Assembly (NCBI GenBank): GCA_964453135.1
Contig: CAYVOL010000002.1
Coordinates: 55,094 to 119,093 of the forward strand
Source: an uncultured Candidatus Saccharibacteria bacterium
Lineage (GTDB): Bacteria > Patescibacteriota > Minisyncoccia > UBA6257 > UBA9933
Length of the DNA: 64,000 nt
Reading direction: 5' to 3'
Shown: piece by piece, positions 20,868-61,280 of the stretch
How the letters are laid out: the number at the start of each line of letters is the position of its first letter
How positions within the stretch are numbered: the stretch's first letter is position 1
Notes under the pieces: model-generated
Databases searched by the model: none
What the model was told of the DNA's origin: nothing
What the model saw: the letters and a program-made list of their open reading frames with translations, nothing else
Translations under genes and position numbers: made by a program

Positions 20868-23063
20868 ATGTTTATAATGAAGAAAATTCTTTTGATTGAC
20901 GCTAACGCTCTTATTCACCGGAGTTTTCACGCTTTGCCGTCTTTTGCTTCTTCCACCGGACAAGCCACGGGCGCGCTTTACGGCTTATCCAATATCCTCT
21001 TGAAAATTCTTAAAAAAGATCCGCCGGATTATTTAGCCGCTTTTTTTGACCGGCCCGAGCCTACTTTTCGCAAAGAACTTTATTCGGAATACAAGGCGCA
21101 TCGTCCTAAAGCTCCGGACGAGCTTATCTCCCAAATTAAGGAAGCTCGCCGGCTTTTTGAGCAGTTTGGCGTCAAAGTTTTTGAAATTCCTGGTTTTGAG
21201 GCCGATGATTTAATCGGCGCGGCGGTGAAAAAATTTAAAGACGCCAATCAATCTCAAATAGTTATTCTTACCGGCGACTTGGATACCTTGCAGCTGGTGG
21301 AGGGTAATAAAATTGTGGTGGAGGCGCTGAAAAAAGGAATCTCCGAGACCATAATTTACAACGAGACAGCAGTGAAAGAAAAATACGGAATTTCTCCCGA
21401 ACAAATTCCCGATTATAAAGGGTTGGTGGGCGACCAATCCGACAATATTCCGGGCGTGAAAGGAGTGGGCCCGAAAACCGCCGCCGCTTTTATTCAAAAA
21501 TACAAAACTTTGGAAAATTTTTTCCAAAAACATCAGGGAGCTGGACGCGAGCAAGAGAAAACAGCCGAAGAAAAATTAGGAAAAAAATCAGAAAGCGCCA
21601 TTCAGAAAATTATCAGCGAAAAAGAAATTGCTTTGCTTTCCAAAAGATTGGCTGTTATTAATCAGGAAGCGTCTTTGGCCATTGATAATTTGGAAGAAAT
21701 AAAATACGGGAAGCTTCCTTTGGAGCATATTATCAAATACTTTGAAAGTTTGGGCTTTCAGAGTCTGATAAAACGGCTGCGCGAATTTCAGGAAATCTCC
21801 CAGAAAAATTTATTGGCGCATGACCATTTGCCCGCCAAGGAAATAGAATTTTTGAAACACCAGCCCACCTTGTCTTTGAAGATAGCGGAAGAAGTGGAAG
21901 CGCCTCTCACCGCCATTTTAAAGGAAATGGAAAACATCGGCATAAAGGTTGATATCGCAAAATTGAAAGAAAAGCGGAGCGCGGTAGAAAAAGGGCTGGA
22001 TAAATTAACCAAAGAAATTTATCAGGAAGCCGGGGAAGTTTTTAATATTAACTCTCCCAAACAAACCCTGGATATTCTTAACAAAAAATTTAAGCTGTCT
22101 TTGCGCTCTACTGCTTATGAGAAATTGATCAAGTTAAAAAACGTTTCTTTGGCGAAATTAATTCTTGAGTACCGCGAACTTTTTAAACTGAATTCAACAT
22201 ATTTTATTCCTCTTATTGAACGGGCATCGCAAGATGCCAAAAGCCGCATTCACCCTACTTTTGTGCAGCTGAAAGCCGCCACGGGCCGCATCACTTGCGA
22301 AAATCCTAATTTGCAGAACATCCCCAAGAGCGCGCGCGATGTTTTCGTGCCTGAAAAAGGCTATAAACTGGCGGCTTTTGATTATTCCCAAATTGAACTG
22401 CGCATCATTGCTTCTTTGTGCGAAGACGCGGAAATGATAAATGTTTTTTTAAGCGGCAAGGATATTCATCAAATGACTGCCTCGAAAATCTTTCGGGTGA
22501 AATCCGAAGACGTCAATTCTTCTATGCGCCAAATCGCCAAGACATTGAACTTCGGCATTATTTACGGAATGGGCAGCCGCAGCTTCAGCGAGGGAAGCGG
22601 GCTGAGTTTGGCAGAGGCGAAAAAATTTATCGCGGAATATTTTGCCGGCTTCCCGGCTATTAAAATTTGGCAGGAGAATGTTTTGAAAGACGCGCGCCAG
22701 AACGGTTATGTGGAAAATTTAAACGGACGGCGCCGGTATTTGCCGGAAATAATTTCTTTTAACCCCCGGATTCAGGCTGAGGCGGAAAGAATGGCGGTTA
22801 ATTTTCCGGTGCAAAGTTTGGCGGCGGACATTATTAAAATGGCGATGATAGGAACTAAGGAAAAATTAACCGAAAAAAATTATTGGAGCGTTAAAGCGCA
22901 TATGCTTCTGACCATTCACGACGAATTGGTGTTTGAAATTAAAGACGACGAATCACTTCCCGGAATCGCCGCTTTAATTAAGGAAACAATGGAGAATGTT
23001 TATGTTTTAAAAGCGCCGCTATCGGTAAAGTCGGCCGCAGGGGATAGCTGGAAAGATTTATAA
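20868..23063 (+). CDS. polA: DNA polymerase I (5'-3' exonuclease + polymerase domains, no recognisable 3'-5' proofreading domain)
   Basis: N-terminal FEN-like LLIDANALIHRSFHAL. Pol A motifs DYSQIELRI, RQIAKTLNFGIIYGM, HDELVFE. 731 aa. Confidence 0.9.
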   Translation: MFIMKKILLIDANALIHRSFHALPSFASSTGQATGALYGLSNILLKILKKDPPDYLAAFFDRPEPTFRKELYSEYKAHRPKAPDELISQIKEARRLFEQFGVKVFEIPGFEADDLIGAAVKKFKDANQSQIVILTGDLDTLQLVEGNKIVVEALKKGISETIIYNETAVKEKYGISPEQIPDYKGLVGDQSDNIPGVKGVGPKTAAAFIQKYKTLENFFQKHQGAGREQEKTAEEKLGKKSESAIQKIISEKEIALLSKRLAVINQEASLAIDNLEEIKYGKLPLEHIIKYFESLGFQSLIKRLREFQEISQKNLLAHDHLPAKEIEFLKHQPTLSLKIAEEVEAPLTAILKEMENIGIKVDIAKLKEKRSAVEKGLDKLTKEIYQEAGEVFNINSPKQTLDILNKKFKLSLRSTAYEKLIKLKNVSLAKLILEYRELFKLNSTYFIPLIERASQDAKSRIHPTFVQLKAATGRITCENPNLQNIPKSARDVFVPEKGYKLAAFDYSQIELRIIASLCEDAEMINVFLSGKDIHQMTASKIFRVKSEDVNSSMRQIAKTLNFGIIYGMGSRSFSEGSGLSLAEAKKFIAEYFAGFPAIKIWQENVLKDARQNGYVENLNGRRRYLPEIISFNPRIQAEAERMAVNFPVQSLAADIIKMAMIGTKEKLTEKNYWSVKAHMLLTIHDELVFEIKDDESLPGIAALIKETMENVYVLKAPLSVKSAAGDSWKDL

Positions 23064-25593: not shown

Positions 25594-26445
25594 TTATTTT
25601 AACAAAGCGTCAATCGCCGCCTTCATTGCCAGATAATCAAATTCTCTTTTTTCGTTCATTTGCAGACTTACTTTCTGGCCGTTAAGAAATACAGCCGGCG
25701 TTCCCACGCCTTCGGGCAGGGCTTTTTCCGCTTCGCTCATCGCGTCGGAGTAAGTATTTTTGTATTTCTCGGAATCATAACAGGCGCCGAAAGCGGCAAC
25801 ATTCATTCTTAAAGCGGCGGCGGTTTTCTGGAAAAAATCCTTAACCAGATTCCCGCTACCCTCATTGGAAGCCAATTGTCCAGACATTACTTTTTGCACC
25901 TCGGCGTATTCCGCGCTGAAGATCGCGTCGCGCATTTCCCAGAATTTTCCCTGCTCTTGGGAGCATTTGGCGGCAATTACGGCGTTTTGCGATTCTTTGA
26001 CGGTTGAACGCGCATCCAAAAAGGCCAAGGGCTTATAAACCATTTTTACTTTTCCGGTTTTAATATATTCTTCGCGTAAGGACTCTTCTATTTCTTTATG
26101 GAATTTGGCGCAAAACGGGCATTGAAAATCGCCGAATTCTATCAGGGTTATAGGAGCGTCGGTATTGCCTAAAATAGCGTCGCTTTCGGAAATTTGAGGG
26201 GAAGCGGTTTGTCCGGTCTGGGCGCCGTTATTCAATGTTTTAAGTGCTACTGCTTGTTGGCTATTTTGAGAAGGGGCATAATTTTTTAAGCCCGTGGAGT
26301 AAATAACCGCTCCGGCGATTAACACTCCGGCGAAGATAATGCTGGCTGGCAGAAGCCAATCTTTCCCCTTTTTTCCTTGGGGTTGCGCGATAGATTGTTC
26401 CTCGGACTGCTCATTGATAGCGCTGTTAGAAGTTTGATTTTCCAT
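25594..26445 (-). CDS. DsbA-family thiol:disulfide oxidoreductase, membrane-anchored
   Basis: N-terminal TM helix. Thioredoxin-fold motif LIEFGDFQCPFCAKFH. Confidence 0.75.
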   Translation of the reverse strand: MENQTSNSAINEQSEEQSIAQPQGKKGKDWLLPASIIFAGVLIAGAVIYSTGLKNYAPSQNSQQAVALKTLNNGAQTGQTASPQISESDAILGNTDAPITLIEFGDFQCPFCAKFHKEIEESLREEYIKTGKVKMVYKPLAFLDARSTVKESQNAVIAAKCSQEQGKFWEMRDAIFSAEYAEVQKVMSGQLASNEGSGNLVKDFFQKTAAALRMNVAAFGACYDSEKYKNTYSDAMSEAEKALPEGVGTPAVFLNGQKVSLQMNEKREFDYLAMKAAIDALLK

Positions 26446-26485: not shown

Positions 26486-27847
26486 TTGCTGGAATTTTAT
26501 CCATTATTTTTGCCTGTTATTATGAATAATTTTAAATTTTTGGCGGTTTTCGCGGGCGACGCGGCGATTTTTTTTCTTTCTTTGGCGCTGGCTATTTATC
26601 TGCGCCAGCCCGTAAATTTTCCCGCGGTTTTTCGGGAGCACTTTTTGCCCTTTTCTTTTATTTTTGTGTTTTGGACGCTGGTTTTTTATTTGTTTAATCT
26701 ATACGAGCCGAAAAATTTTAAGAACGACCTCGCGCTTTTCAAAAATTTTATCCTTTCTCTCGTTTTTAACGCGGCCGCCGCCGTTATTTTCCTGTATTTT
26801 TTCGCCGCTCAGTTTCAAAATGTTTCCCCTAAGACAATTTTCTTTCTTTTTGTTTTGATTTTCGGGCTGCTTGGATTTTTGTGGCGCTATTTTTTCAATT
26901 ATTTCAATAACATCGTCGGAGCAGGGGAGAAAATTTTATTTATTCTTCCTTCTGAACAGCGTTATCAAAAATCAGTCGGCGAATTAAGCGGTTATCTCAA
27001 AAATCATCCTCACCTTGGCTACGAGATAAAATATCAGCTGCCGGAAGGCGACATTAGCCAGATGGATAAGATTCCCGACATCATCCGGAATCATCAGATA
27101 AATTTAATTATTATCCCGGCGCATTTGAAGGAGAAAAAATTGTCCCGGGCGATTTACGACAATTTGGCCTTGGGAATTGCTTTGATAAGCTGGGTGGAAT
27201 TTTACGAGATTATTTTTAAAAAAATTCCTTTGGCCGAGCTGGAAGAAAGCTGGTTTTTGGAAAATATCGCTTTTCGCCACCAAATTTACGACGCGGTTAA
27301 GGGGATAACCGAAGCAATTTTGTCGTCCATTTTAATTATTATTTTATCGCCTCTTTTTGTTTTGATTTTTATTTTAATAAAAATTACTTCCCGCGGCCCG
27401 GCGATTTATCGGCAAAAAAGAACCGGACAAAAAGAAAAAATTTTCACGCTTTACAAATTTCGCACTATGAGGATTGACCAAGAAGGGCCTTTGTGGACTG
27501 ACAAAAACGATCGCCGCCTTACTTTCGCGGGGAAAATTTTGCGTTACAGCCATTTAGACGAACTGCCCCAGTTGTGGAATATCTTAAAAGGCGACATTTC
27601 TTTTGTGGGGCCGCGGCCGGAGCGGGTGGAACTTTCCGAACAATACAAACAGCTTCCTTTTTACGAAATCCGCCATATTATCAAACCGGGACTTACCGGC
27701 TGGGCGCAAATAAATTATCAGCCGAGCGTTTCTTTGGAAGAGGCTTACGAAAAACTGCAATACGATGTTTATTATATTGAGAATCGCTCGCTGTTTTTGG
27801 ACTTCTTGATTTTAGTGAAAACAATCAAACATTTATTCGCGTCCTGA
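26486..27847 (+). CDS. undecaprenyl-phosphate sugar phosphotransferase (WbaP/CpsE-type initiating enzyme)
   Basis: N-terminal TM bundle. C-terminal bacterial sugar transferase motifs LSPLFVLIFILIKITSRGPAIYRQKRTG...FTLYKFRTM...FVGPRPER. Confidence 0.85.
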   Translation: MLEFYPLFLPVIMNNFKFLAVFAGDAAIFFLSLALAIYLRQPVNFPAVFREHFLPFSFIFVFWTLVFYLFNLYEPKNFKNDLALFKNFILSLVFNAAAAVIFLYFFAAQFQNVSPKTIFFLFVLIFGLLGFLWRYFFNYFNNIVGAGEKILFILPSEQRYQKSVGELSGYLKNHPHLGYEIKYQLPEGDISQMDKIPDIIRNHQINLIIIPAHLKEKKLSRAIYDNLALGIALISWVEFYEIIFKKIPLAELEESWFLENIAFRHQIYDAVKGITEAILSSILIIILSPLFVLIFILIKITSRGPAIYRQKRTGQKEKIFTLYKFRTMRIDQEGPLWTDKNDRRLTFAGKILRYSHLDELPQLWNILKGDISFVGPRPERVELSEQYKQLPFYEIRHIIKPGLTGWAQINYQPSVSLEEAYEKLQYDVYYIENRSLFLDFLILVKTIKHLFAS

Positions 27848-27855
27848 CTTAAGAA

Positions 27856-29322
27856 ATGATCAGCCGCCTTAAAAATCTTCTTTTTCAAAATCGTTCTACC
27901 AGGCAAACCATCGCTAAAAATATTTTTTGGCTGAGCGTGTCGCAGGTGGGCAGCCGTTTTATCCGCGCCAGCATTTTGATTTACGCGGCGCGCGTTTTGG
28001 GCGCGGAGCAGTACGGAGTTTTTTCCTATGTTTTGGGATTGGCCGGATTTTTTACCATCTTCGCCGATCTGGGGGTAAGCCCTTTGATGACGCGGGAAGT
28101 GGCGGGCCGGCCGGAAAAGCGAACGGTTTATTTCGCCAACGCTTTTTGGCTAAAAACCATACTTCTTTCCTTGACGGCTATACTCATTGTTTTCGCGGCG
28201 CCTAAATTTTCCAAAATTGAAGAGGCGTCCTTTCTTATTCCTTTCGTGGCGCTTCTTACTATATTTGATAATTTCCGCGATTTTACATTCTCTTATTTTC
28301 GGGGAACGGAAAAAATGGAGGTAGAAGGTTTTCTGACGGTTATTATGAATGTGGCGATTGCCGCGGCCGGATTTGTTATTTTATATTTTTCCAAAACCGC
28401 CGGCGCTTTGCTTTTTTCTTATATTGCCAGCGTGGGTATTTTAAGCGCGATTGCTTTTTATTTTATCAAAGACGAATTGAAAAATGTTTTTCAAAATTTT
28501 CACAAAAAAATCTTCGTCCAATTTTTTAATGATTCCTGGCCATTGGCTTTCGCGGGACTCTTCGGCGTTTTTATGCTGAACATTGACCTGGTGATTCTCG
28601 GCTGGTGGCGCGGCGCGGCGGAAATCGGCTATTACGCGGCCAGCCAGCGGGTGGTGCAAATACTTTATACTTTGCCCTCCATTCTGGCCAGCGCCGCTTT
28701 TCCCGCTCTCTCGCGCTTTGTCAGCCAAAACGATATAGAAAAAGCGCGCCGGCTTAATGAAAAATCAATGGCGGTTTTGTATTTTGTCGCCCTGCCGCTG
28801 GCCGTGGGCGGAGTTGTATTGGGAGCGCCGATAATAGAATTTCTCTTTGGCAAAGAATATCTTCCGGGCGCGCCCACTTTTCAGATATTCTGCGCTACTT
28901 TGCTGATAAATTTTCCCGGAGCCGTAATTGGCAATCTTATTTTGGCGCACAACCAACAGCGGTCGTCGTTTAAGTATCTGGCTTTGGGCGCGCTTACCAA
29001 TGTATTATTTGACATTATTTTAATCCCGCCTTACGGCATTGCCGGTTCGGCAGTAGCGACTTTTCTGTCGCAGGCGGTTTATTTTATCCCGGTCTGGTTT
29101 ATGATGAAAAAGAAAAATAATTTTCAAACACTTGTCTACTTAAAAAAAATGATTGCGAGCGCGGCTCTTATGGGGATTTTCAGCTACGGACTTAATGTTT
29201 TCGGTTCGCCGGTTGCTGTTAATATCGTTCTCTCGGCGGGAATCTATTTGGGACTGCTTTATTTATTGAAAGAAAACATTATTTATGAAATGGGAGAATT
29301 GTTTGGCAGGTTGAAGGAGTAG
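27856..29322 (+). CDS. wzx: Wzx-like oligosaccharide flippase (MOP superfamily)
   Basis: 488 aa, about 12-14 TM helices, polysaccharide biosynthesis protein architecture. Confidence 0.75.
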   Translation: MISRLKNLLFQNRSTRQTIAKNIFWLSVSQVGSRFIRASILIYAARVLGAEQYGVFSYVLGLAGFFTIFADLGVSPLMTREVAGRPEKRTVYFANAFWLKTILLSLTAILIVFAAPKFSKIEEASFLIPFVALLTIFDNFRDFTFSYFRGTEKMEVEGFLTVIMNVAIAAAGFVILYFSKTAGALLFSYIASVGILSAIAFYFIKDELKNVFQNFHKKIFVQFFNDSWPLAFAGLFGVFMLNIDLVILGWWRGAAEIGYYAASQRVVQILYTLPSILASAAFPALSRFVSQNDIEKARRLNEKSMAVLYFVALPLAVGGVVLGAPIIEFLFGKEYLPGAPTFQIFCATLLINFPGAVIGNLILAHNQQRSSFKYLALGALTNVLFDIILIPPYGIAGSAVATFLSQAVYFIPVWFMMKKKNNFQTLVYLKKMIASAALMGIFSYGLNVFGSPVAVNIVLSAGIYLGLLYLLKENIIYEMGELFGRLKE

Positions 29323-29363
29323 AGAGATACTTTCGGGAGTTGTTTGCTATTTATCTCCGTCTA

Positions 29364-29395
29364 TTGTCTTGCGGGGGGGGGCTTACTGGTATAAT
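29364..29395 (+). promoter_or_regulatory. candidate sigma70-like promoter with G9 homopolymer in the spacer
   Basis: TTGTCT (29364-69), 20-nt spacer containing GGGGGGGGG (29373-81), extended -10 TGgTATAAT (29387-95), ATG at 29402. Confidence 0.35.
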
Positions 29396-29401
29396 TAAAA
29401 T

Positions 29402-30613
29402 ATGAATAAGGCTTTCACCCTCATAGAACTTCTGATAGTTATTGCCATCTTGGCTATATTAGCCACGGTAATTACTTTAGCCATCAACCCCATAGAATAC
29501 TTCAAACAAACCAGAGATGCCAAAAGAATGGCGGAACTCAATGCCTTAAACCAAGCCCTCCAGATATACGATGCCAGCAATGTAAACATCATCAGCCAGC
29601 AATCCTCCACCACTGTCTACGTCTCTATTGCCGACCCCAATATTACTGGAAACTCCACTTCTTCCTGTTCCAATATGGGTCTTCCCTCCCTTCCCTCCAA
29701 CTACTCCTACTACTGCGTTTCCCAAGCTAATCTCAGAAAAACAGACGGCACGGGCTGGATACCTGTCAACTTCCAATCCCTGTCTTCTGGTTCTCCTTTA
29801 TCCGCCTTGCCCATTGATCCGATAAACACCACTTCTTCTGGGAATTATTATACCTATACGCAAGGAGGGAGTTGGGAATTAACTACCATCTTTGAATCCC
29901 AAAAATATATTGATAAGGCCGCGCAAGACGGCGGACCAGATTCGGCAATGTATGAAATAGGGACTAATCTTTCTCTTTCCCCGTTTGTACACGGCTTATT
30001 GGGCTATTGGCAATTAGATGAAAATAGCGGAACAATTGCAAGTGATTTGAGTGGCAATGGCCACAATGGAACATGGAATGGATCTGGCAACCATTTTGCT
30101 ACAGGGAAAGTCGGCCTTTTTGCAGGCCAATTTAATGGCAGCGACGATTATGTAAGCATAAATACGTGGCCGTCGTCTTCTCATGAGCCGCTTACTATAG
30201 GAGGATGGTTTAATGTTCTTGGGGGCGGGAATTATATGGCGGGATTAGTTGATAAAAATGCACGTTTTTCATTATTCTCCAATGCCGCTAATGGAGCAAT
30301 CGAGGTATTTGCTGGTGGCGCTATTAGTTGTGGTTATGATGAATTGTGGGCTAATAGTAAAATGTTAGTCGGATCGGGTTGGCATTTTATTTATGCTACT
30401 ATAGATTCTGCAAATAAAGTCTCTATATATTATGATGGCATATTAGATAGTTCTAAATTTTTTTGCGGAGTGCCAGAAGGTAGCAATTTGATGAATTTAG
30501 GCTTAAATCCTAATGGTAATCGTTATTTTAATGGTCAAATAGATGACGTCCGCATTTATAATCGCGCTCTTTCCGCCGCTGAAATTGCCGCCATCTATAA
30601 TGCCGAGAAATAA
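29402..30613 (+). CDS. type IV pilin-like protein fused to a C-terminal LamG/concanavalin-A-like lectin domain
   Basis: Class III signal MNKAFTLIELLIVIAILAIL with Glu+5. Shares the ...MYEIGT core with the downstream pilins. C-terminus carries the LamG hallmark GQIDDVRIYNRALSAAEI. Confidence 0.75.
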   Translation: MNKAFTLIELLIVIAILAILATVITLAINPIEYFKQTRDAKRMAELNALNQALQIYDASNVNIISQQSSTTVYVSIADPNITGNSTSSCSNMGLPSLPSNYSYYCVSQANLRKTDGTGWIPVNFQSLSSGSPLSALPIDPINTTSSGNYYTYTQGGSWELTTIFESQKYIDKAAQDGGPDSAMYEIGTNLSLSPFVHGLLGYWQLDENSGTIASDLSGNGHNGTWNGSGNHFATGKVGLFAGQFNGSDDYVSINTWPSSSHEPLTIGGWFNVLGGGNYMAGLVDKNARFSLFSNAANGAIEVFAGGAISCGYDELWANSKMLVGSGWHFIYATIDSANKVSIYYDGILDSSKFFCGVPEGSNLMNLGLNPNGNRYFNGQIDDVRIYNRALSAAEIAAIYNAEK

Positions 30614-30628
30614 CTTCTATTTTTTGCC

Positions 30629-32863
30629 CTACTCCAGTTTCAGTGAGAGAATTTTTGAGGTGCCGTCGTTGTTCATAGTGACGCCGTAAAGCACGTCCGC
30701 TGTTTCCATTATCACGCGGTTGTGGGTGATGACGATAAACTGAATCTCGCGGCAAAATTCTTTTATCAATTCGGCAAAGCGGCGGGAGTTTTTTTCGTCC
30801 AGAGGCGCGTCAATTTCGTCTAAGACCAAAAAGGGCGGGGGACTGACGGAAATCAAAGAGAATAAAGCGGCAATGGAAACAAGGCTTTTTTCTCCGCCGG
30901 ACAAAGCATCCAGGCTGTGAATCCGTTTTTTGGGCAAATTAAGCTCAATGTCTATGCCGGTATTTTCTTCCTTTTTTTCCTCCCCGGTAGTTTCAATGGA
31001 GGTCGGTGCGTTTTCTTCACTATCCATTGCATTTTGACTTTTGTCCGCCCCCGCCGCGGCGGATCGGATCGGATTTTGGATTTTCATTTTGGCGCTTCCT
31101 CCGCCGAACATCAGCCGGAAAAATTTGTTGAATTCTTCGTTAATGATTTTAAAAGAATCATTAAAACGGGAAGAGATTTCATTTTTTAATTCCGCGATGA
31201 GATTATGTAAATCCGCCAAGGCCTTTTCCAAGTCGGCTGATTGATTTGTTAAATAATCACAGTGCGCTTCCACCTCTTTTGCTTCCCGGATAAGCGCGTC
31301 GTCTATTTCGCCGATGCTCATCAGCTCGTTTTTTAAGCGAAGAATCTTTCTTTCCAGTTCTTGCCAGTCAGCGGTATTGTCAATAAAGGCGGGGCCCAAT
31401 TTGGAGAAATCTTCTTCGGTTCTTCCATTGGCCAGCCAATCGTTTTTGATATCTCCAATGCGTTCTTCCAATTTTTTATTTTCAAACAAAAGATAATTTT
31501 TTTTGTTTTCCTGCGCTCGGATTTCTTCTTTTTGCTCCTCTTTTAGTTCAAAAGCTTTCCGGAATTGTTCGTTGAAATTTTCCAGATTTTTTTCCAGGGA
31601 TTCTTCGCGCGTTTTAATTTCTTGGATATCTTTTTCTATCAACGAGAGTTGTTCGGAAATTTTTATTTTTTCTTTGTTGAGGTTTTCTAGTTCTGGCTTT
31701 GGAGAAGCGTCAGTTGTCGGACGCCGGAAGAAATCGTCTATTTTTTTAATGAGCGATTTTAAGGAGGAAATGATTTGGGAATGGTCGTTTGCGTTTAATT
31801 TGTCTTCCATCTGCTGGCGGATGTCTTTCAAAAGATTGATTAAATCGCCGGCGGGGAATTGTTGTTCTTTTTCAGGAGTTTTTTGAGTTATTATTTCTAT
31901 GCGCGCTTCAATTTTTCCCAATTCGCGCTGGAGAGATGATTGCCGTCCGGCTAATTCTTCTTTTTCATTTCTTAAAATAGAATGTTCGTTTTTGACAATT
32001 GCTTGAGATTCTATTTTTTTTAGCTCAGCGGACAAAGTGGTCAACTTTTTATTTTGTTCGGCGATAATTTGTTCGTATTCTTGCGCCGAGCGGTTATTGC
32101 CGCTGATGTCTTTTTTTATGCCGGCAATTTTATGGCTGAAATAAATGTTTTCCGCCTGGAGAAGCTCTTCTTTTTTTTGGTCGCGCAGTTCGTAGCGCGC
32201 CACTTGTTTTTTGAGCGTTTTTAAGCGCGGTAAAACCTCTTCCAGCATCAATTTCACTTTTTCCAAATTGAGCGCGGTGGCTTTTAATTTTCTTTCCGCC
32301 TCGGCTCTTTTCAGCTGGTATTCTTTTAATCCTAAAATTTCTTCCACCATCTGTCGGCGTTCTTCCGGCGCGGCTTTCACGAATAAGTCGCTGGAGCCTT
32401 GATTGATGATAGCGATGCCTTTGGCTCCCAATCTAGAGCGGGCGAAAAAATCAATCACGTCTTTGGCGCGGGATTCTGATTTGTTGATAAAATAATTGGA
32501 ATTGCCGTCGCGGGAAACTTCGCGGCTGACAGTTACTTCCTCAAATTCTAACGGGAAGGTTTTGGAGCGGTTGTCAAAAGAAATCGCCACTTGCGCCAGG
32601 CTGGCGCGCGTTTTTTGGGGCGTGCCGGCGAAAATCAAATCTTCCGCCTTGCTCCCCCGCAAGTTTTTCGTTTCCCGCTCGCCTAAAATCCAGCGGATGG
32701 AGTCGGTTAGATTGGATTTCCCGCTTCCGTTGGGGCCGACAATCGCCGTGATGCCTTTGGGAAATTCCAAAATTGTTTTTTGAGCGAATGATTTAAAGCC
32801 GTTGAGCTCTAAAGATTTGAGATGCATTAGGTCAAATTTAGAGCATTTTTTAATGGTTGACAA
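30629..32863 (-). CDS. smc: SMC-family chromosome segregation ATPase, unusually short (744 aa)
   Basis: N-terminal LKSLELNGFKSFAQKTILEFPKGITAIVGPNGSGKSNLTDSIRWILGE. C-terminal LSGGEKSLVSIAALF...LVLDEIDAPLD...QFIVITHNRVIMETADVLYGVTM. Long coiled-coil middle. Confidence 0.8.
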   Translation of the reverse strand: MSTIKKCSKFDLMHLKSLELNGFKSFAQKTILEFPKGITAIVGPNGSGKSNLTDSIRWILGERETKNLRGSKAEDLIFAGTPQKTRASLAQVAISFDNRSKTFPLEFEEVTVSREVSRDGNSNYFINKSESRAKDVIDFFARSRLGAKGIAIINQGSSDLFVKAAPEERRQMVEEILGLKEYQLKRAEAERKLKATALNLEKVKLMLEEVLPRLKTLKKQVARYELRDQKKEELLQAENIYFSHKIAGIKKDISGNNRSAQEYEQIIAEQNKKLTTLSAELKKIESQAIVKNEHSILRNEKEELAGRQSSLQRELGKIEARIEIITQKTPEKEQQFPAGDLINLLKDIRQQMEDKLNANDHSQIISSLKSLIKKIDDFFRRPTTDASPKPELENLNKEKIKISEQLSLIEKDIQEIKTREESLEKNLENFNEQFRKAFELKEEQKEEIRAQENKKNYLLFENKKLEERIGDIKNDWLANGRTEEDFSKLGPAFIDNTADWQELERKILRLKNELMSIGEIDDALIREAKEVEAHCDYLTNQSADLEKALADLHNLIAELKNEISSRFNDSFKIINEEFNKFFRLMFGGGSAKMKIQNPIRSAAAGADKSQNAMDSEENAPTSIETTGEEKKEENTGIDIELNLPKKRIHSLDALSGGEKSLVSIAALFSLISVSPPPFLVLDEIDAPLDEKNSRRFAELIKEFCREIQFIVITHNRVIMETADVLYGVTMNNDGTSKILSLKLE

Positions 32864-34094: not shown

Positions 34095-34787
34095 TTACCC
34101 CCCGCTGATTTTTTGTAAGGCGTCCTGGGCTGCCTCGGTTTCTGCTTCCTGTTTGGAAAATCCTTTGCCCGTGCCGCTGATTTTGTCTCCGAAGTAAACC
34201 GCCACGGTGAAAATTTTTTGATGGTCTGGCCCTTCTTCTTTTAAGACAGAATACGAAGGGGTTAGTTTTAATTTTTCCTGAATAATTTCCTGCAGTAAGC
34301 TTTTCGGGTCTTTGTAGGTTTTGTTTTTGATTACTTCCGGCACAAGAGAGAGGATGTGGTTTTTGATGAAGCAAGATGTTTTTTCGTAGCCGGCGTCCAA
34401 GTAAGCGGCGCCGATAACCGCTTCCAGGGCATTGGCTAAAATGACTTCTTTCGCCCGGCCGGAATCTTTTTCTTCTCCGCGGGAAAGGTAAATGAAGGTT
34501 TCTAAATTGATGCTTTTCGCCACTTTTGCCAGAGTCTGATAATTAACAATCGCGGCGCGAATGCCGGTAAGCTCCCCTTCGGAGTATTGCGGGTAGCTTT
34601 GAAAAAGATTTTCCGTGGTTGTCAGCTCTAAAACAGCGTCTCCCAAAAATTCCAGTCTTTCATTATGGGGAGTTTCCCAGTCGGGGTTTTCATTAAGATA
34701 AGAGCGGTGAGTGAGCGCTTCTTTGAGCAGTTGTTTGCTATTAAACTCAATGCCGATTTTGTTTTCTAAATTCGATAATTCCACCAA
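34095..34787 (-). CDS. rnc: ribonuclease III
   Basis: Signature ERLEFLGDAVLE, C-terminal dsRBD. Probable TTG/GTG start. Confidence 0.9.
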   Translation of the reverse strand: MVELSNLENKIGIEFNSKQLLKEALTHRSYLNENPDWETPHNERLEFLGDAVLELTTTENLFQSYPQYSEGELTGIRAAIVNYQTLAKVAKSINLETFIYLSRGEEKDSGRAKEVILANALEAVIGAAYLDAGYEKTSCFIKNHILSLVPEVIKNKTYKDPKSLLQEIIQEKLKLTPSYSVLKEEGPDHQKIFTVAVYFGDKISGTGKGFSKQEAETEAAQDALQKISGG

Positions 34788-34916
34788 ATTAAATAATTTA
34801 GGATTTAGGATATAGAATTTAGGCCATTATTTCCGCGAGAAAGCCAACTCCTAAATTCTAAATTCTAATTCCTAACTATAAATAATTCTGTATTCTAACT
34901 TCTAAATTACTAAATC

Positions 34917-35351
34917 TTATTTTGATTCCATTTCTTTATACAATGTTCCCAAAACGCCGTTGACGAATTTTGGGGAATTGGGGCCGCCGAAATTTTTCGC
35001 CAGCTCAATGGCTTCATTGATGGCTACCTTTCTTGGTACTTCGTTTATATCGGAATAAAGCAATTCGTACAATCCGAGGCGCAAGACATTCCTGTCTATA
35101 ACGGGAATTTGTTCTATGGGCCATTGGGGAGCGGATTTTTTAATAAGTTCGTTTAATCCCGGCAAGTGGGAAATGATTCCGTGGATAAGGCGCCAGGCGA
35201 ATTCCGGTTCGTCGATGCCCTCGCCCATTTCTTTTAAGTTTCTCTCCACTATTTTAATTAAGTCTTCTTTCTGCTGATAAAAATCCCACTCGTAGAGCGA
35301 TTGTATAATTATGGAGCGGATAAGATGTCGAGTAGCCATTAATAATGCCAA
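34917..35351 (-). CDS. nusB: transcription antitermination factor NusB
   Basis: [15 protein letters not shown]... [28 protein letters not shown] matches NusB. Confidence 0.8.
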
Positions 35352-58117: not shown

Positions 58118-58477
58118 ATGGATGAAAAAATTATTCAACAAATAAAGTCCGGCGCGCAGGTGCGCGTTTGGGAAAGAATTGTTGCCGAAAAAGGCGCGGC
58201 TGGCGGAAAAGGGAAAAAAGAAAGCGGCAAAGAGAGAATTTCCAAATTTCAGGGAATAGTTTTGGCGCGCAAACACGGCAAAGAAACCGGCGCCACTTTC
58301 ACCGTTCGCTCTACAGTTGGAGGCGTGGGCGTGGAGAAGGTTTATCCTTTTTATTCGCCGATAATTTCCAAAATAGAAATTTTATCTTCTCCTAAAAAGA
58401 TTCATCGCTCCAAACTTTATTTTGTCAGGGATCTCTCCAAAAAGAAATCGCGCGAGAAAATCGGCGTGGCGGCGTAG
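58118..58477 (+). CDS. rplS: 50S ribosomal protein L19
   Basis: VRVWERI...ERISKFQGIVLARKHGKETGATFTVRS...GVGVEKVYPFYSP matches L19. Confidence 0.9.
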   Translation: MDEKIIQQIKSGAQVRVWERIVAEKGAAGGKGKKESGKERISKFQGIVLARKHGKETGATFTVRSTVGGVGVEKVYPFYSPIISKIEILSSPKKIHRSKLYFVRDLSKKKSREKIGVAA

Positions 58478-58572: not shown

Positions 58573-59241
58573 ATGAGTAAGAGGGGGGCCAAGCCAAAGG
58601 GGAAAGTTAAAATAAAGTGGTCGTCAAAATTTGCTTACGCGATTGGGCTCTTGGTTACCGACGGCAGTTTATCGAATGATGGGCGACATATTAATTTTAC
58701 CTCAAAAGATAGGGAGTTAGTTATTTTACTAAAAGATTCTTTAATGATCGATAATCACATTGGTAAAAAAGCGAGAGTGAGCGAGCAGGAGAAAAAATAT
58801 TTTGTTATTCAATTTGGAGATGTTTTGTTTTATTCATTTTTATGCTCTATCGGCTTGATGCCATGTAAATCCAAGAAGTTAACTTCAATCAATATTCCAG
58901 ATAAATATTTTTTCGATTTTTTGCGAGGTCATTTTGATGGCGACGGAACTTTTTATTCGTATTGGGATCCGCGTTGGAAATCAAGTTTTATGTTCTATAC
59001 TGTTTTTGTTTCGGCGAGCGAAAAACATATTCAATGGCTTCAAAATAAAATATACGGATTTTTAAAAATTAAAGGGCACATCAACCATAATTTTAAGAAA
59101 ACGGTTTATGAGTTGAAATACGCCAAAAAAGAATCATTGAGTTTATTGACTAAAATGTATTATGATAACAAAGTATCTTGTTTATCAAGGAAGAAGGAAA
59201 AAATAAAAAAAGCTTTAAAAATTGATGAGTATCATCAATAG
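58573..59241 (+). CDS. free-standing LAGLIDADG-family homing endonuclease (two motifs)
   Basis: AYAIGLLVTDGSL and FDFLRGHFDGDGTF. AT-rich compared with neighbours. Ends 4 nt before tRNA-Leu. Confidence 0.7.
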   Translation: MSKRGAKPKGKVKIKWSSKFAYAIGLLVTDGSLSNDGRHINFTSKDRELVILLKDSLMIDNHIGKKARVSEQEKKYFVIQFGDVLFYSFLCSIGLMPCKSKKLTSINIPDKYFFDFLRGHFDGDGTFYSYWDPRWKSSFMFYTVFVSASEKHIQWLQNKIYGFLKIKGHINHNFKKTVYELKYAKKESLSLLTKMYYDNKVSCLSRKKEKIKKALKIDEYHQ

Positions 59242-59245
59242 GTTA

Positions 59246-59332
59246 GCCCGGGTGTCGTAATTGGTAGCCGAGCATGCTTGAGGTGCATGTGGCCGCAAGG
59301 CCGTGGAGGTTCGAGTCCTCTCCCGGGCACCA
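59246..59332 (+). tRNA. tRNA-Leu (anticodon GAG), CCA encoded
   Basis: Acceptor GCCCGGG/CCCGGGC, anticodon arm CATGC-TTGAGGT-GCATG, long variable arm GGCCGCAAGGCCG, T-arm GGAGGTTCGAGTCCTCT, 3' ACCA. Confidence 0.8.
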
Positions 59333-59386
59333 CAACTAACTTTTTCGGAATTGATATTTAAAGGCGCTGTTTGTATACTAAAGAGA

Positions 59387-59776
59387 ATGACAGGAACTGA
59401 AAAAGCAACAAAAAAAATTTTAATCATTGAAGACGACCCTTATATTGTCCGGGCCTACACTTTAAAATTGGCCAAGGAAGGCATTGCCGCGGAGGCGGTT
59501 AATGACGGCGAAACAGCGGTTGATTTCTTGAAAAAAAACAAGCCGCCCGATTTGATTATTTTGGATTTGATGTTGCCTAGGCAAAGCGGCTTCGATGTTT
59601 TAAAAGAGATTAAGCAAAGCGATTTATGGAAAGATATTCCGGTGATAATTCTTTCCAATCTTGGCAGCGAAGAGGACAAGGAGAAAGGGAAAAAACTGGG
59701 CGCCAGCGATTATATCACCAAAGCCGACGCCGGCATTGAAGAGGTGATAGCGAAAATAAAAAAATATCTGAAATGA
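59387..59776 (+). CDS. single-domain response regulator (REC only; PilH/CheY-like) heading the pilin locus
   Basis: ILIIEDDPYIVRAY...DLIILDLMLPRQSGFDV...VIILSNLGS. 129 aa. The ORF-track start at 59303 lies inside the tRNA; ATG at 59387 chosen. Confidence 0.75.
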   Translation: MTGTEKATKKILIIEDDPYIVRAYTLKLAKEGIAAEAVNDGETAVDFLKKNKPPDLIILDLMLPRQSGFDVLKEIKQSDLWKDIPVIILSNLGSEEDKEKGKKLGASDYITKADAGIEEVIAKIKKYLK

Positions 59777-59916: not shown

Positions 59917-60582
59917 ATGTTAAATAAAAATAAGAAAAGAGGTTTTACTTTGTTGGAGCTTTTAATTGTTATCGGCATTTTGGCGGTTTTAGCCGGAGTG
60001 ATGATTTTTATTTTAAACCCGGCGGAAACTTTAAGGAAAGCGCGCGATTCGCAAAGGTTGAGCGATTTGGCGACGTTAAAGTCTGCCTTGGGAATTTATA
60101 TGTCCAGCGCGGCTTCTCCTCAGATTGACGGCACGAGCGGAACAGCCAATGATAAATGTTTGGGCGGCGGAGGGACAAAAACTATTTATTGGAGCAATGC
60201 TACTTCCGGCGCAAACACATCAACAACCAATTCCGGTTTTGACGCTTTTTCCGTTTCTACTTCCGGGGTTATCACCGGCAGCGGCTGGGTTCCGGTAAAC
60301 TTAAGCAGTCTTTCCGGCGGTTCTCCTATATCCGCCATGCCTATTGACCCGTCAAACACCACCAGTTCGGTTGCCACCTCCAGCTTGGTTTATCGTTATG
60401 CTTGCAGGAAGTCTCCCTTGGGATTTGAAATTAATTCTCAGTTGGAGTCTGATTTCTACACGGGCGTTTCCAGCGGCGCCGCTGATTGGAGGAAAAATGA
60501 TTCAGGCAACGAGTCCGGTCTTTATGAAGTAGGCACAGACCTGACAATTTTACTGGCCGCTAGCAGCTCTAATGCGTATTAA
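59917..60582 (+). CDS. type IV pilin-like protein (paralog 1)
   Basis: Prepilin signal MLNKNKKRG-FTLLELLIVIGILAVL with Glu+5. Conserved PAETLRKARDSQR and C-terminal LYEVGTD. Confidence 0.8.
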   Translation: MLNKNKKRGFTLLELLIVIGILAVLAGVMIFILNPAETLRKARDSQRLSDLATLKSALGIYMSSAASPQIDGTSGTANDKCLGGGGTKTIYWSNATSGANTSTTNSGFDAFSVSTSGVITGSGWVPVNLSSLSGGSPISAMPIDPSNTTSSVATSSLVYRYACRKSPLGFEINSQLESDFYTGVSSGAADWRKNDSGNESGLYEVGTDLTILLAASSSNAY

Positions 60583-60590
60583 AATAAAAA

Positions 60591-61280
60591 ATGTTAATTC
60601 ATAAAAAATCAAAAAATAAGCTCGGTTTCACGCTTTTGGAACTTTTAATTGTTATCGCTATTATCGGCATTTTGGGTATGGTGTTGTTTTTCCTGATTAA
60701 CCCGGCGGAAACTTTAAGAAAAGCTCGCGATTCGCAAAGAATTAGCGATTTGGGAACAATCAAATCGGCTTTAGCGCTTTACACTTCCAATGTTTCTTCT
60801 CCTCAGCTTGACGGAACAAGCGGAACGGCCAATGCAAAATGTAAAGACGGAAGCGGTACGAAGACAATTTTCTTAAGCGTCGCGACCAGCGGTATTGCCA
60901 CGACAACGGGTATGAGTCCTGCTTACAGCGCTTTTACCACTTCTACCTTGGCCAGTTCGTCATTGACCAATGGCACGGGATGGGTTCCGGTGAATCTGGC
61001 TTCAATTTCCGGAGGCACGCCGATTTCTCAGCTTCCGGTTGACCCGACTAATACTACAAATAGTTCGGTTGCCACCAGCAGTTTGATTTATCGTTATGTT
61101 TGTAACGGCAGTCCTTTGGGTTTTGGGGTTTCAGCGCAGATGGAAAGCGCTTATTATACCGGATCTGATTCTTCCGCTTCCAGCACGGACGTGAGAAAAA
61201 TTGACGGAGGCAACAACGCGGATCTTTACGAAGTCGGCAGCGACCCGACGCTGTTGCCGGCCACGGGAGCGAAATATTAA
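60591..61280 (+). CDS. type IV pilin-like protein (paralog 2)
   Basis: KLG-FTLLELLIVIAIIGIL. Same conserved N-terminal 50 aa and LYEVGSD tail. 8 nt after paralog 1. Confidence 0.8.
   Translation: MLIHKKSKNKLGFTLLELLIVIAIIGILGMVLFFLINPAETLRKARDSQRISDLGTIKSALALYTSNVSSPQLDGTSGTANAKCKDGSGTKTIFLSVATSGIATTTGMSPAYSAFTTSTLASSSLTNGTGWVPVNLASISGGTPISQLPVDPTNTTNSSVATSSLIYRYVCNGSPLGFGVSAQMESAYYTGSDSSASSTDVRKIDGGNNADLYEVGSDPTLLPATGAKY

What the first reader, a model, noticed from the sequence alone, without database searches (positions are those of the whole stretch)
29364..29404. G9 homopolymer in the promoter spacer of the pilin-lectin fusion gene: candidate phase-variation switch
A run of nine G (29373-29381) is highly atypical for this AT-rich sequence. 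It lies between a -35-like TTGTCT and an extended -10 TGgTATAAT, and it stretches the spacer to about 20 nt. Slipped-strand changes in G-tract length alter spacer length and switch promoters on and off in the fimbrial and adhesin genes of Neisseria, Haemophilus and Bordetella. The controlled gene is a surface pilin fused to a lectin-like domain, exactly the kind of product that is usually phase-varied. The -10 ends 6 nt before the ATG, so the transcript would be leaderless or nearly so.
Basis: partly seen in the sequence, partly recalled or inferred. Interest (0 to 1): 0.6.

Follow-up and report, generated by a model that had tools for sequence, protein, structure and literature searches.

The report
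Poly-G tract inside a pilin promoter
A run of nine G's sits inside the core promoter of a stand-alone pilin-lectin gene in an ultrasmall (Patescibacteria-type) bacterium. That is the classic layout of a slippage-driven expression switch for surface adhesins, but no data here show that the run actually changes length.

Summary
It is the only G/C run of 8 or more in the 64 kb window. G/C runs of 5-6 are clearly depleted against a Markov null, but one G9/C9 still appears in 27% of dinucleotide shuffles.

The promoter reading is well supported. Six of eight sampled homologues carry a -10-like hexamer 6-9 nt before their ATG, four of them with TGn. About one gene in six in this window has the same leaderless geometry.

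The -35 assignment is doubtful. TTGCGG (29369-74, spacer 15) is as good a candidate as TTGTCT (spacer 20). An unbiased metagenome scan found 'TTGC-G8-10-N5-8-TGnTATAAT' in 8 of 63 independent loci against about 0.3 expected. Four of the five downstream products scanned are an autotransporter, a FadA adhesin, a DUF285 protein and a pilin. Ten of 16 families sampled more than once vary in tract length.

Length variation at this locus is untested. Two assemblies both read G9, no strain relatives exist, and the extended -10 may blunt any spacer effect.

Verdict: a plausible contingency promoter, a new member of a known kind, and apparently unreported in this phylum.

The parts
29364..29369 (+). 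-35 candidate A, TTGTCT (4/6 match to TTGACA). Its spacer to the -10 is n+11, which is 20 nt at G9 and would be 16-18 at G5-G7.
   Evidence: Sequence. The sigma-70 scan with a 16-18 nt spacer does not report a promoter here at G9.
29369..29374 (+). -35 candidate B, TTGCGG (3/6 match), overlapping the first two G of the tract. Its spacer is n+6, which is 15 nt at G9 and would be 16-18 at G10-G12.
   Evidence: Sequence. TTGC lies immediately 5' of the G tract in 8 of 63 independent metagenome families with the same downstream promoter. The 4-mer background is 0.0042, so about 0.3 are expected. Spacers in those families are 16, 16, 16, 16, 17, 17, 18 and 14.
29373..29381 (+). G9 homopolymer on the coding (non-template) strand, at -29 to -21 relative to the ATG/predicted TSS. 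It is the candidate slippage site.
   Evidence: It is the only G/C run of 8 or more in 64 kb and is also G9 in the independent contig L001.
29387..29395 (+). Extended -10 element, TGgTATAAT.
   Evidence: It is one of only 4 TGNTATAAT sites in the window. Two of the four lie 6-7 nt before the ATG of a long ORF. Homologues L083, L084, L085 and L210 carry TGnTA(T/C/G)AAT 6-8 nt before their ATG.
29402..29404 (+). Start codon and predicted transcription start (leaderless mRNA), 6 nt after the -10.
   Evidence: Inference from geometry. The distance from TATAAT to an ORF-opening ATG peaks at 5-8 nt in this window (6 cases, against 0-3 in other distance bins). There is no upstream in-frame start. The TSS is not mapped.
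29402..30613 (+). Controlled gene: a 403-aa type IV pilin-like protein (MNKA|FTLIELL) fused to a LamG/concanavalin-A-like domain.
   Evidence: Pfam N_methyl and Laminin_G_3. 2492 homologues at E<=1e-5; the source-given names among the best 120 are mostly Patescibacteria-type (Paceibacterota, Wolfebacteria), and the best hit is 48% identical.
27856..29322 (+). Upstream same-strand gene, a Wzx/MurJ-like polysaccharide flippase. It ends 79 nt before the pilin ATG with no terminator between, so read-through is possible.
   Evidence: Pfam. No terminator was found in 29323-29401. The fold of 29300-29420 is no more stable than shuffles (z = -0.37).

Best explanation
The G9 tract is a hypermutable homopolymer embedded in the core promoter of a stand-alone pilin-LamG (adhesin-like) gene.

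Proposed mechanism:
- RNA polymerase uses the extended -10 TGgTATAAT (29387-95) and starts at or next to the A of the ATG (29402), giving a leaderless mRNA.
- Replication slippage adds or removes G's. This changes the distance between the -10 and the upstream TTG elements (TTGCGG spacer n+6; TTGTCT spacer n+11).
- At G9 neither element is at the 16-18 nt optimum (15 and 20 nt). The assembled state is therefore predicted to be a low or basal state carried by the extended -10 alone.
- G10-G12, or G5-G7, would bring a -35 into register and raise transcription.

The expected result is heritable but reversible cell-to-cell variation, more likely graded than strictly on/off, in display of a lectin-tipped pilin.

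What is shown: the tract, its position, the conserved -10 and leaderless geometry, and the product domains. What is inferred: slippage at this locus, the choice of -35, the TSS, and any effect on expression.
For: 1. The tract and promoter elements are exactly as described.
2. The -10 and leaderless layout is conserved in homologues that share no other upstream sequence. L084 has TGcTATAAT-N6-ATG, L085 TGcTATAAT-N7-ATG, L083 TGtTAGAAT-N8-ATG, L210 TGgTACAAT-N6-ATG, and L208 TATAAT-N8-ATG.
3. This genome uses canonical sigma-70 geometry. Leaderless-type promoters in the window have TTGnnn at 16-17 nt, for example TTGACA-17-TATCAT at 26445(-), TTGACT-16 at 20400(-) and TTGGAA-17 at 52399 (read from the sequences). 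Spacer length should therefore matter.
4. G/C runs of 5-6 are otherwise 2-5 fold under-represented. The single long one lies in the promoter of a surface-protein gene.
5. The metagenome scan for G>=8-N3-8-TGNTATAAT-N5-8-ATG gave 63 independent families. Eight have TTGC directly before the tract, as here, against about 0.3 expected. Pfam scans of five of their downstream products gave an autotransporter/pertactin (L132), a FadA adhesin (L134), a DUF285 surface-type protein (L189) and a T2SSG/N_methyl pilin (L172). The fifth, L094 (893 aa), has a signal-peptide-like N-terminus and no Pfam hit.
6. Ten of 16 families sampled in more than one contig differ in tract length, so such tracts do vary in nature.
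7. A second homologue promoter (L210) carries a different G-rich SSR, about ten TAGGGKW heptamers, immediately upstream of its extended -10.
8. Established knowledge: G8-G11 tracts in promoter spacers switch or tune porA, opc and fetA in Neisseria, fim in Bordetella, vlp in Mycoplasma hyorhinis and tpr genes in Treponema pallidum. PMC6389960 states that variation in the length of promoter homopolymeric tracts can tune transcription, as shown for opc.
Against: - No length variation was observed at this locus. The window and an independent Logan contig both read G9.
- The exact proteins of this gene and its neighbour occur in only one sample.
- No related strain exists in the searched collections.
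- One G9/C9 per 64 kb is not rare under a dinucleotide null (27 of 100 shuffles).
- TGn extended -10 promoters are largely independent of the -35, so a spacer change may have little effect.
- The tract is absent from all eight homologue promoters inspected. It is also absent from about 26 other Patescibacteria-titled loci carrying pilin- or LamG-type matches.
- Read-through from the flippase gene could express the pilin regardless of this promoter. Most genes here lack a Shine-Dalgarno motif, so internal initiation is normal for this organism.
- The metagenome scan required the G tract and the TGNTATAAT by design. It shows that the architecture exists and recurs, not that it is enriched.
Confidence: 0.5

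Rival explanations
1. The tract is an incidental passenger. The promoter is a constitutive extended -10 leaderless promoter that needs no -35, and the G9 is neutral spacer sequence that arose by chance or drift in this lineage. It may slip occasionally, but without a selected or meaningful effect on expression.
For: - Homologue promoters work with TGn -10 elements and no recognisable -35 or tract.
- A G9/C9 occurs in 27% of dinucleotide shuffles of the window.
- At G9 neither TTG element is properly spaced, yet this is the state seen in both assemblies.
- The tract is not conserved in relatives.
Against: - G/C runs of 5-6 are clearly avoided elsewhere in the window (2-5 fold depletion), which makes a neutral G9 less expected.
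- Its position in the about 10% non-coding fraction, exactly between TTG elements and the -10 of an adhesin-type gene, copies an architecture that recurs before adhesin genes in other bacteria.
- Other promoters in this genome do have -35 TTG elements at 16-17 nt.
Confidence: 0.3
2. The tract is transcribed as part of a 5' leader or an operon read-through transcript. That transcript would start at an upstream promoter such as 29303-29331, or come from the Bac_transf/flippase operon. The tract would then act at RNA level, for example by pairing with the C-rich start of the coding region (GCUUUCACCC, 29411-29420) to mask the AUG. Alternatively it could be a protein-binding site.
For: - No terminator lies between the flippase stop (29322) and the pilin ATG, and the genes are on the same strand only 79 nt apart.
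- The MFE fold of 29300-29420 pairs the G tract with 29411-29420 around the AUG.
- A weak promoter-like site, TTGGCA-17-GATACT, lies at 29303-29331.
- Most genes here initiate without a Shine-Dalgarno motif.
Against: - The fold is no more stable than shuffled sequence (z = -0.37; 70 of 200 shuffles fold as well).
- The consensus extended -10 at exactly the leaderless distance, conserved across homologues, argues that the main TSS is at the ATG. The tract would then not be in the main transcript.
- No Rfam family matches here.
Confidence: 0.12
3. The tract length, or the tract itself, is a sequencing or assembly artefact. Examples are a homopolymer miscall, or poly-G read-end artefacts of two-colour Illumina chemistry.
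For: Homopolymers are error-prone. Some of the length polymorphism among metagenome contigs comes from very low-coverage contigs, for example L116 at coverage 1.2.
Against: - Two assemblies that differ by one SNP elsewhere both give G9 with identical unique flanks on both sides.
- The tract is internal to a 134-kb contig.
- Nine G's is far shorter than poly-G read-end artefacts.
Confidence: 0.03

Closest known systems
Neisseria meningitidis porA (poly-G), opc and fetA (poly-C) promoter-spacer tracts (own knowledge: van der Ende 1995; Sarkari 1994. opc is cited in PMC6389960)
   Same: A G/C homopolymer of about 9-14 nt lies between the -35 and -10 of a surface-protein gene. Slippage changes spacer length and gives high, intermediate or no transcription.
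   Different: - Those promoters have a mapped TSS, a 5' leader with an RBS, and experimentally shown switching.
- Here the -10 is an extended TGn type and the mRNA is predicted to be leaderless.
- The -35 is ambiguous, with two TTG elements that bracket the optimum.
- The host is a Patescibacterium, and no variation has been observed.
Bordetella pertussis fim2/fim3 poly-C tract and Haemophilus influenzae hifA/hifB TA repeats (own knowledge: Willems 1990; van Ham 1993. A genome-wide Bordetella survey, PMC1891110, is listed)
   Same: The controlled product is a pilus or fimbrial subunit, and an SSR in the promoter region sets the distance between promoter elements.
   Different: - In Bordetella the tract spaces an activator (BvgA) site from the -10. 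No activator site is known here.
- hif uses a dinucleotide repeat shared by divergent promoters. Here there is a single unidirectional promoter.
Treponema pallidum tprE/G/J and TP0126 poly-G tracts; Mycoplasma hyorhinis vlp poly-A tracts (own knowledge: Giacani 2007 and 2015; Yogev 1991)
   Same: Host-dependent bacteria with reduced genomes use promoter homopolymers to vary surface proteins. In T. pallidum the poly-G length grades transcription rather than giving a strict on/off switch.
   Different: The phyla differ, those genes have leaders, and variation was demonstrated by sequencing of isolates and by reporters.
Neisseria meningitidis nspA promoter poly-A tract (PMC6389960)
   Same: A homopolymer in a promoter whose length affects expression of a surface protein.
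   Different: [quoted passage not shown] It is a precedent for the rival reading, in which the tract is a fixed strain-level tuning element rather than a switch.
Metagenomic 'cTTGC-G8-10-N5-8-TGnTATAAT' promoters found here (L132/L092 family, L134, L189/L118, L123 family, L172, L094, L173, L140)
   Same: - They have the same local architecture as the window, including TTGC abutting the tract and an extended -10.
- Four of them share the eight bases tgtcttgc with the window.
- Downstream genes include an autotransporter, a FadA adhesin, a DUF285 protein and a pilin.
   Different: - Most have spacers of 16-17 (window 15) and a leader with an SD-type RBS before the gene.
- Their hosts are unidentified, and GC ranges from 27 to 51%.
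- They were found by a pattern that imposed the tract and the -10.
- I found no published description of this class.

Membership tests
SSR-mediated transcriptional phase variation (promoter-spacer contingency locus) | A simple sequence repeat long enough to slip at high frequency (G/C homopolymer of about 7-8 or more) | tested here: met
   G9 at 29373-29381.
SSR-mediated transcriptional phase variation (promoter-spacer contingency locus) | The repeat lies between, or overlaps, the -35 and -10 elements of the promoter that drives the gene | tested here: inconclusive
   The -10 is strongly supported by consensus and by conservation in homologues, and the tract lies 5-13 nt upstream of TGn. The -35 is ambiguous: TTGTCT has a spacer of 20 and TTGCGG a spacer of 15. 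The TSS is not mapped.
SSR-mediated transcriptional phase variation (promoter-spacer contingency locus) | Tract length is polymorphic within a population or between closely related strains | not testable with these tools
Two assemblies both read G9. There were no matches to the flanks with a variable gap in the metagenome or genome collections. The nearest homologue is 48% identical. Analogous tracts elsewhere are polymorphic in 10 of 16 families, but that is indirect.
SSR-mediated transcriptional phase variation (promoter-spacer contingency locus) | Expression level depends on tract length, reversibly | not testable with these tools
   This needs reporter constructs or single-cell expression data. 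Only spacer arithmetic is available: n+6 and n+11.
SSR-mediated transcriptional phase variation (promoter-spacer contingency locus) | The controlled product is surface-exposed or involved in host interaction | tested here: met
   N_methyl prepilin motif plus a Laminin_G_3 lectin-like domain. Surface location is inferred from the domains.
Type IV pilin / pseudopilin superfamily (the controlled gene) | N-terminal class III signal: a short basic leader, a cleavage site, then F-T-L-I-E with Glu at +5 and a hydrophobic helix | tested here: met
   MNKA|FTLIELLIVIAILAILA. PF07963 scores 28.8 bits (cut-off 21.2). F5, T6, L7 and E9 are invariant in 28 homologues.
Type IV pilin / pseudopilin superfamily (the controlled gene) | Gly at position -1 of the prepilin peptidase site | tested here: not met
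   Position -1 is Ala here, and the family consensus is Ser. This is a deviation from classical pilins. Whether a cognate peptidase accepts it was not tested.
Type IV pilin / pseudopilin superfamily (the controlled gene) | A prepilin peptidase and assembly ATPase/platform are encoded in the genome | not tested
   The ORFs flanking the locus (about 20-37 kb) and those at 57-63.5 kb were scanned and contain none. The remaining ORFs of the window (about 1-20 kb and 38-57 kb) were not scanned, and the rest of the genome is not available.
Leaderless mRNA | The TSS coincides with the start codon, with the -10 hexamer ending about 6-8 nt upstream of the ATG | tested here: inconclusive
   The geometry is met: TATAAT-N6-ATG. 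The same geometry occurs at 11 of 67 genes here and in 5 of 8 homologues. No transcript 5'-end data are available.

The most novel reading that the evidence does not exclude
The window's promoter may be one instance of a convergent, cross-phylum switch cassette, cTTGC-G(8-12)-N5-8-TGnTATAAT, in which the G tract starts inside the -35 hexamer. The cassette would be dedicated to adhesin genes: autotransporters, FadA, DUF285 proteins and pilins. In Patescibacteria it would be coupled to a leaderless start, so that a single-G slip is the only control point for display of a lectin-tipped attachment pilus. That would be stochastic host-attachment switching in an episymbiont lineage where no phase variation has been described.
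Probability: 0.2. Interest if true: 0.65.

Novelty: new member of a known kind. Interest (0 to 1): 0.45.

Why it matters
Patescibacteria (CPR) are thought to live attached to host cells, and they encode very many pilin-LamG proteins. How they regulate attachment is unknown, and their regulatory repertoire is small. A slippage-controlled promoter would be a regulator-free way to diversify surface lectins within a population. The searchable literature holds no report of SSR phase variation in this phylum.

The locus is directly testable with existing data (reads of SRR5161805). The side observation of a recurrent TTGC-Gn-TGnTATAAT adhesin promoter class gives a simple sequence signature for mining candidate contingency loci in uncultured bacteria. 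Mechanistically, however, it would add a member to a well-known class rather than a new principle.

Tried and rejected
- **Strain-level comparison.** A DNA pattern of both exact flanks with a variable gap (N3-25) found nothing in metagenome contigs or genome contigs. Exact-protein look-ups of the pilin and of the neighbouring flippase returned only one Logan contig from one sample. The 90% identity cluster has a single member with no name. Tract-length polymorphism at this locus could therefore not be assessed.
- **Homologue loci from genomes.** The search for related loci with an alignment of 28 homologues on genome contigs chose generic pilin and LamG peptide patterns. It returned mostly unrelated pilin or LamG genes from many phyla. 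It was useful only as a background set, in which no G/C run of 8 or more lies upstream of any match.
- **Terminator or structured RNA.** No terminator lies in the intergenic region. The fold is not better than shuffles. There is no Rfam hit there. Rejected as the primary explanation.
- **Rarity as proof.** The dinucleotide-shuffle test gives p of about 0.27 for one or more G9/C9. The tract's mere existence is therefore not significant on its own.
- **Missing Shine-Dalgarno motif as evidence for a leaderless mRNA.** Rejected, because only 6 of 67 genes have an SD-like motif.
- **SSRs as a general feature of pilin promoters in Patescibacteria.** Apart from the query locus, only L210 among about 34 loci has one. 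No general trend can be claimed.
- **Literature.** Searches for phase variation in CPR/Patescibacteria, for the TTGC-poly-G motif and for Fusobacterium promoter homopolymers found nothing relevant. Two searches failed on syntax.
Full report
**1. The observation**

The sequence reads ...ccgtctaTTGTCTtgcGGGGGGGGGcttacTGgTATAATtaaaatATGaataaggctttcaccctcatagaactt. TTGTCT is at 29364-69, G9 at 29373-81, TGgTATAAT at 29387-95 and ATG at 29402. The TTGTCT-to-TATAAT spacer is 20 nt, and 6 nt separate the -10 from the ATG.

The ORF 29402-30613 encodes 403 aa. It has a prepilin N-terminus (MNKA|FTLIELL; PF07963, 28.8 bits) and a C-terminal Laminin_G_3 / concanavalin-A-like domain (E 7e-21).

**2. Is the tract more than chance?**

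It is the only G/C run of 8 or more in the window. The others are one G7, one G6 and two C6.

The window is 42% G+C, so 'AT-rich' is an overstatement. With dinucleotide content preserved, 27 of 100 shuffles contain at least one G9/C9. A first-order Markov simulation gives 29%. Taken alone, the tract is not statistically remarkable.

The real sequence does avoid shorter G/C runs. Runs of 5 number 30 against 57 expected, and runs of 6 number 3 against 14.7; no simulation was as low. Runs of 7 and 8 are also low (1 against 3.5 and 0 against 0.9) but within the simulated range. G9 is therefore an outlier against the genome's own run-length decay. It also lies in the roughly 10% of the window that is non-coding.

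An independent Logan assembly of run SRR5161805 (L001, 4302 bp) differs from the window by one SNP at 27238 and also reads G9. The tract is real, and G9 is the consensus length.

**3. Organism and gene context**

- The homologues whose sources give a name are mostly from Candidatus Paceibacterota, Wolfebacteria or 'Patescibacteria group' MAGs. The family is large, with 2492 hits at E<=1e-5, and the best hit is only 48% identical.
- Upstream on the same strand are a Bac_transf sugar transferase (26486-27847) and a Wzx/MurJ-type flippase (27856-29322). Downstream is a convergent SMC gene (30629-32863).
- Further neighbours are housekeeping genes: polA, yidC, trxB-like, rnc, nusB and ruvB.
- The pilin-LamG gene is therefore a stand-alone gene, not part of a pilus-machinery cluster. 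Its homologues elsewhere are also scattered among housekeeping genes.

**4. Is there a promoter, and is the mRNA leaderless?**

- TGNTATAAT occurs only four times in the window. Two of the four lie 6-7 nt upstream of the ATG of a long ORF: polA at 20877 and the pilin at 29402.
- Of 81 TATAAT hexamers, six lie 5-8 nt before an ATG that opens an ORF of at least 80 aa. Other distance bins hold 0-3.
- A -10-like hexamer 5-9 nt before the start occurs at 11 of 67 genes.
- Several of these promoters also have TTGnnn at 16-17 nt: TTGACA-17, TTGACT-16, TTGAAG-16, TTGTTT-16 and TTGGAA-17 (read). The organism therefore appears to use canonical sigma-70 geometry.
- The layout is conserved in homologues whose upstream DNA is otherwise unrelated. 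L084 has TGcTATAAT-N6-ATG, L085 TGcTATAAT-N7-ATG, L083 TGtTAGAAT-N8-ATG and L210 TGgTACAAT-N6-ATG. L208 has TATAAT-N8-ATG and L082 TACAAT-N9-ATG. L207 has no clear -10, and L209 is operon-internal.

This is good comparative evidence that 29387-95 is the working -10 and that transcription starts at or next to the ATG.

One caveat applies. Only 6 of 67 genes have a Shine-Dalgarno-like motif. Its absence here is therefore uninformative, and translation from a read-through transcript cannot be excluded. No terminator separates the flippase from the pilin gene.

**5. Which -35, and what would slippage do?**

Two TTG elements flank the start of the tract.
- TTGTCT (4/6 match) has a spacer of n+11, where n is the tract length. 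That is 20 nt at G9 and 16-18 nt at G5-G7.
- TTGCGG (3/6 match, overlapping the tract) has a spacer of n+6. That is 15 nt at G9 and 16-18 nt at G10-G12.

At G9, and also at G8, neither element is in register. This is why the standard scan with a 16-18 nt spacer reports no promoter ending at 29395. My inference is that the assembled state is a basal state carried by the extended -10 alone, and that slips of one or more G upward, or two or more downward, would bring a -35 into register.

Extended -10 promoters tolerate loss of the -35 (established knowledge). I therefore expect graded modulation rather than a strict on/off switch.

**6. Comparative test of the architecture**

No relatives of the locus exist, so I scanned the metagenome collection for GGGGGGGG-N3-8-TGNTATAAT-N5-8-ATG. 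Of these, 100 parsed and fell into 63 independent families.

- In 8 of 63 families the four bases before the tract are TTGC, exactly as in the window. The background frequency of TTGC in the same loci is 0.0042, so about 0.3 families are expected.
- Four families (L092 family, L094, L173, L140) share 'tgtcttgc' and similar -10 flanks and could be paralogous. If they are merged, five unrelated families remain.
- With TTGCGG read as the -35, their spacers are 16, 16, 16, 16, 17, 17, 18 and 14. The window's is 15.
- Five downstream products were scanned against Pfam. L132 is a 903-aa autotransporter with a pertactin domain. L134 is a FadA adhesin. L189 is an 804-aa DUF285 protein. L172 is a T2SSG/N_methyl pilin lying 314 nt downstream. 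L094 is an 893-aa protein with a signal-peptide-like N-terminus and no Pfam hit.
- Ten of the 16 families sampled more than once differ in tract length. The largest is a 15-contig human-gut family with G8, G9 and G10. Its geometry is TTGAAA-aaca-Gn-taaaTGaTATAAT, a spacer of n+11, the same as the TTGTCT reading in the window.

Limits: the pattern imposed both the tract and the extended -10. Some polymorphism may be homopolymer error in low-coverage contigs. The hosts are unidentified.

Even so, the scan shows that the window's layout recurs before adhesin-type genes and that such tracts vary in length in nature.

**7. Conservation within the family**

None of the eight homologue promoters has a G/C tract. 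No Patescibacteria-titled locus in the background set has a G/C run of 8 or more upstream of its match.

One homologue, L210 (45% identity), has a different G-rich SSR. About ten TAGGGKW heptamers fill the whole intergenic space up to about 10 nt before its TGgTACAAT. Two of nine promoters of this family therefore carry a G-rich repeat on the coding strand just upstream of the -10. This is suggestive, but the numbers are small.

**8. Alternatives**

- An RNA-level role is not supported. The fold of 29300-29420 is no more stable than shuffles (z = -0.37), and Rfam finds nothing there.
- An artefact is unlikely, given two assemblies and unique flanks on both sides.
- The serious rival is that the tract is a neutral or fixed feature of a constitutive extended -10 promoter. 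[quoted passage not shown]

**9. Comparison with known systems and novelty**

The closest mechanistic relatives are the promoter-spacer homopolymers of Neisseria (porA poly-G, opc and fetA poly-C), Bordetella fim (poly-C), M. hyorhinis vlp (poly-A) and T. pallidum tpr and TP0126 (poly-G). These rest on my own knowledge; opc is cited in PMC6389960.

Of the defining features:
- repeat length and a surface-protein product are met;
- position in a spacer is met relative to the -10 but remains ambiguous for the -35;
- length polymorphism and length-dependent expression could not be tested.

I found no report of SSR phase variation in CPR/Patescibacteria. The one CPR 'hypervariation' paper concerns a coding 9-mer repeat (PMC6851277). 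If functional, this locus is a new member of a known kind, in a new phylum and with a leaderless twist.

**10. Verdict**

- Probability that the tract is a functional hypermutable modulator of this promoter: about 0.5.
- Incidental tract: about 0.3.
- Transcribed or other regulatory element: about 0.12.
- Artefact: about 0.03.

Interest is moderate at 0.45. The mechanism would be familiar. Its occurrence at a lectin-pilin gene of an episymbiont lineage is new and can be tested directly with the reads of SRR5161805.

Noticed in passing
Loci L132/L092/L169/L178/L103/L116, L134, L189/L118, L123/L148/L192, L172, L094, L173, L140 (metagenome contigs): A recurrent promoter design, cTTGC-G8-10-N5-8-TGnTATAAT, occurs in 8 of 63 independent families against about 0.3 expected. 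Downstream are an autotransporter/pertactin, a FadA adhesin, a DUF285 protein, a pilin and a large protein with a signal-peptide-like N-terminus. Four families share the eight bases 'tgtcttgc' with the window. I found no published description.
   Followed up: partly
L089, L091, L095, L104, L107, L117, L125, L146, L151, L170, L175, L188, L201, L204, L206: Fifteen human-gut metagenome contigs carry the same locus, agTTGAAAaaca-Gn-taaaTGaTATAAT, with n = 8 (5 contigs), 9 (8 contigs) and 10 (2 contigs). This is natural length polymorphism of a promoter G tract. It lies upstream of a 91-aa predicted membrane protein (MKKKMWLTLCNLGVSVVFLL...).
   Followed up: partly
L210:913-985 (homologue P0037): About ten tandem G-rich heptamers (TAGGGKW, like the plant telomere repeat TTTAGGG) fill the intergenic region up to about 10 nt before TGgTACAAT-N6-ATG of a pilin-LamG homologue. 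This is a second, different SSR in a promoter of this gene family, and it has the potential to form a G-quadruplex.
   Followed up: partly
window 34796-34915: Imperfect heptamer arrays (ATTTAGG x4; CTAAATT x about 9, 66-80% matches) lie in the 129-nt spacer between rnc (34095-34787, -) and nusB (34917-35351, -).
   Followed up: no
whole window (67 ORFs): Only 6 of 67 genes have a Shine-Dalgarno-like motif. Eleven of 67 have a -10-like hexamer 5-9 nt before the start codon, so SD-independent and leaderless initiation seem to be the norm in this organism.
   Followed up: partly
whole window: G/C homopolymers of length 5 and 6 are 2-5 fold rarer than a first-order Markov model predicts (30 against 57; 3 against 14.7). 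A/T runs of 6-9 are abundant.
   Followed up: yes
window 29402-29416, and alignment A1: The prepilin cleavage site has Ala at -1, and the consensus of 28 homologues is Ser, instead of the near-universal Gly. The leader is only 4 residues here, against about 9-10 in homologues.
   Followed up: no
window 59917-60582 and 60591-61280: Two further tandem pilin-like genes (N_methyl, 221 and 229 aa) follow a response-regulator gene (59303-59776). The second has TAAAAT 5 nt before its ATG. Neither has a G/C tract.
   Followed up: no
L085/L086:1687-2906 and L209:1-997: Directly upstream of two homologues lies a second pilin-LamG copy that is called as separate N_methyl and Laminin_G_3 ORFs. These are split or decayed paralogues. 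No G/C run of 6 or more lies within the split L085/L086 copy; L209 was checked only for runs of 7 or more.
   Followed up: no
window 27238: A single G/A difference separates the window from the Logan contig L001 over 4302 bp, inside the Bac_transf gene. The two assemblies are therefore not byte-identical consensus calls.
   Followed up: no
window 58573-59241: A 222-aa ORF with a weak LAGLIDADG_3 match lies between rplS (58118-58477) and tRNA-Leu (59246-59332). Its fourth codon starts the window's only G6 run (58583-58588).
   Followed up: no
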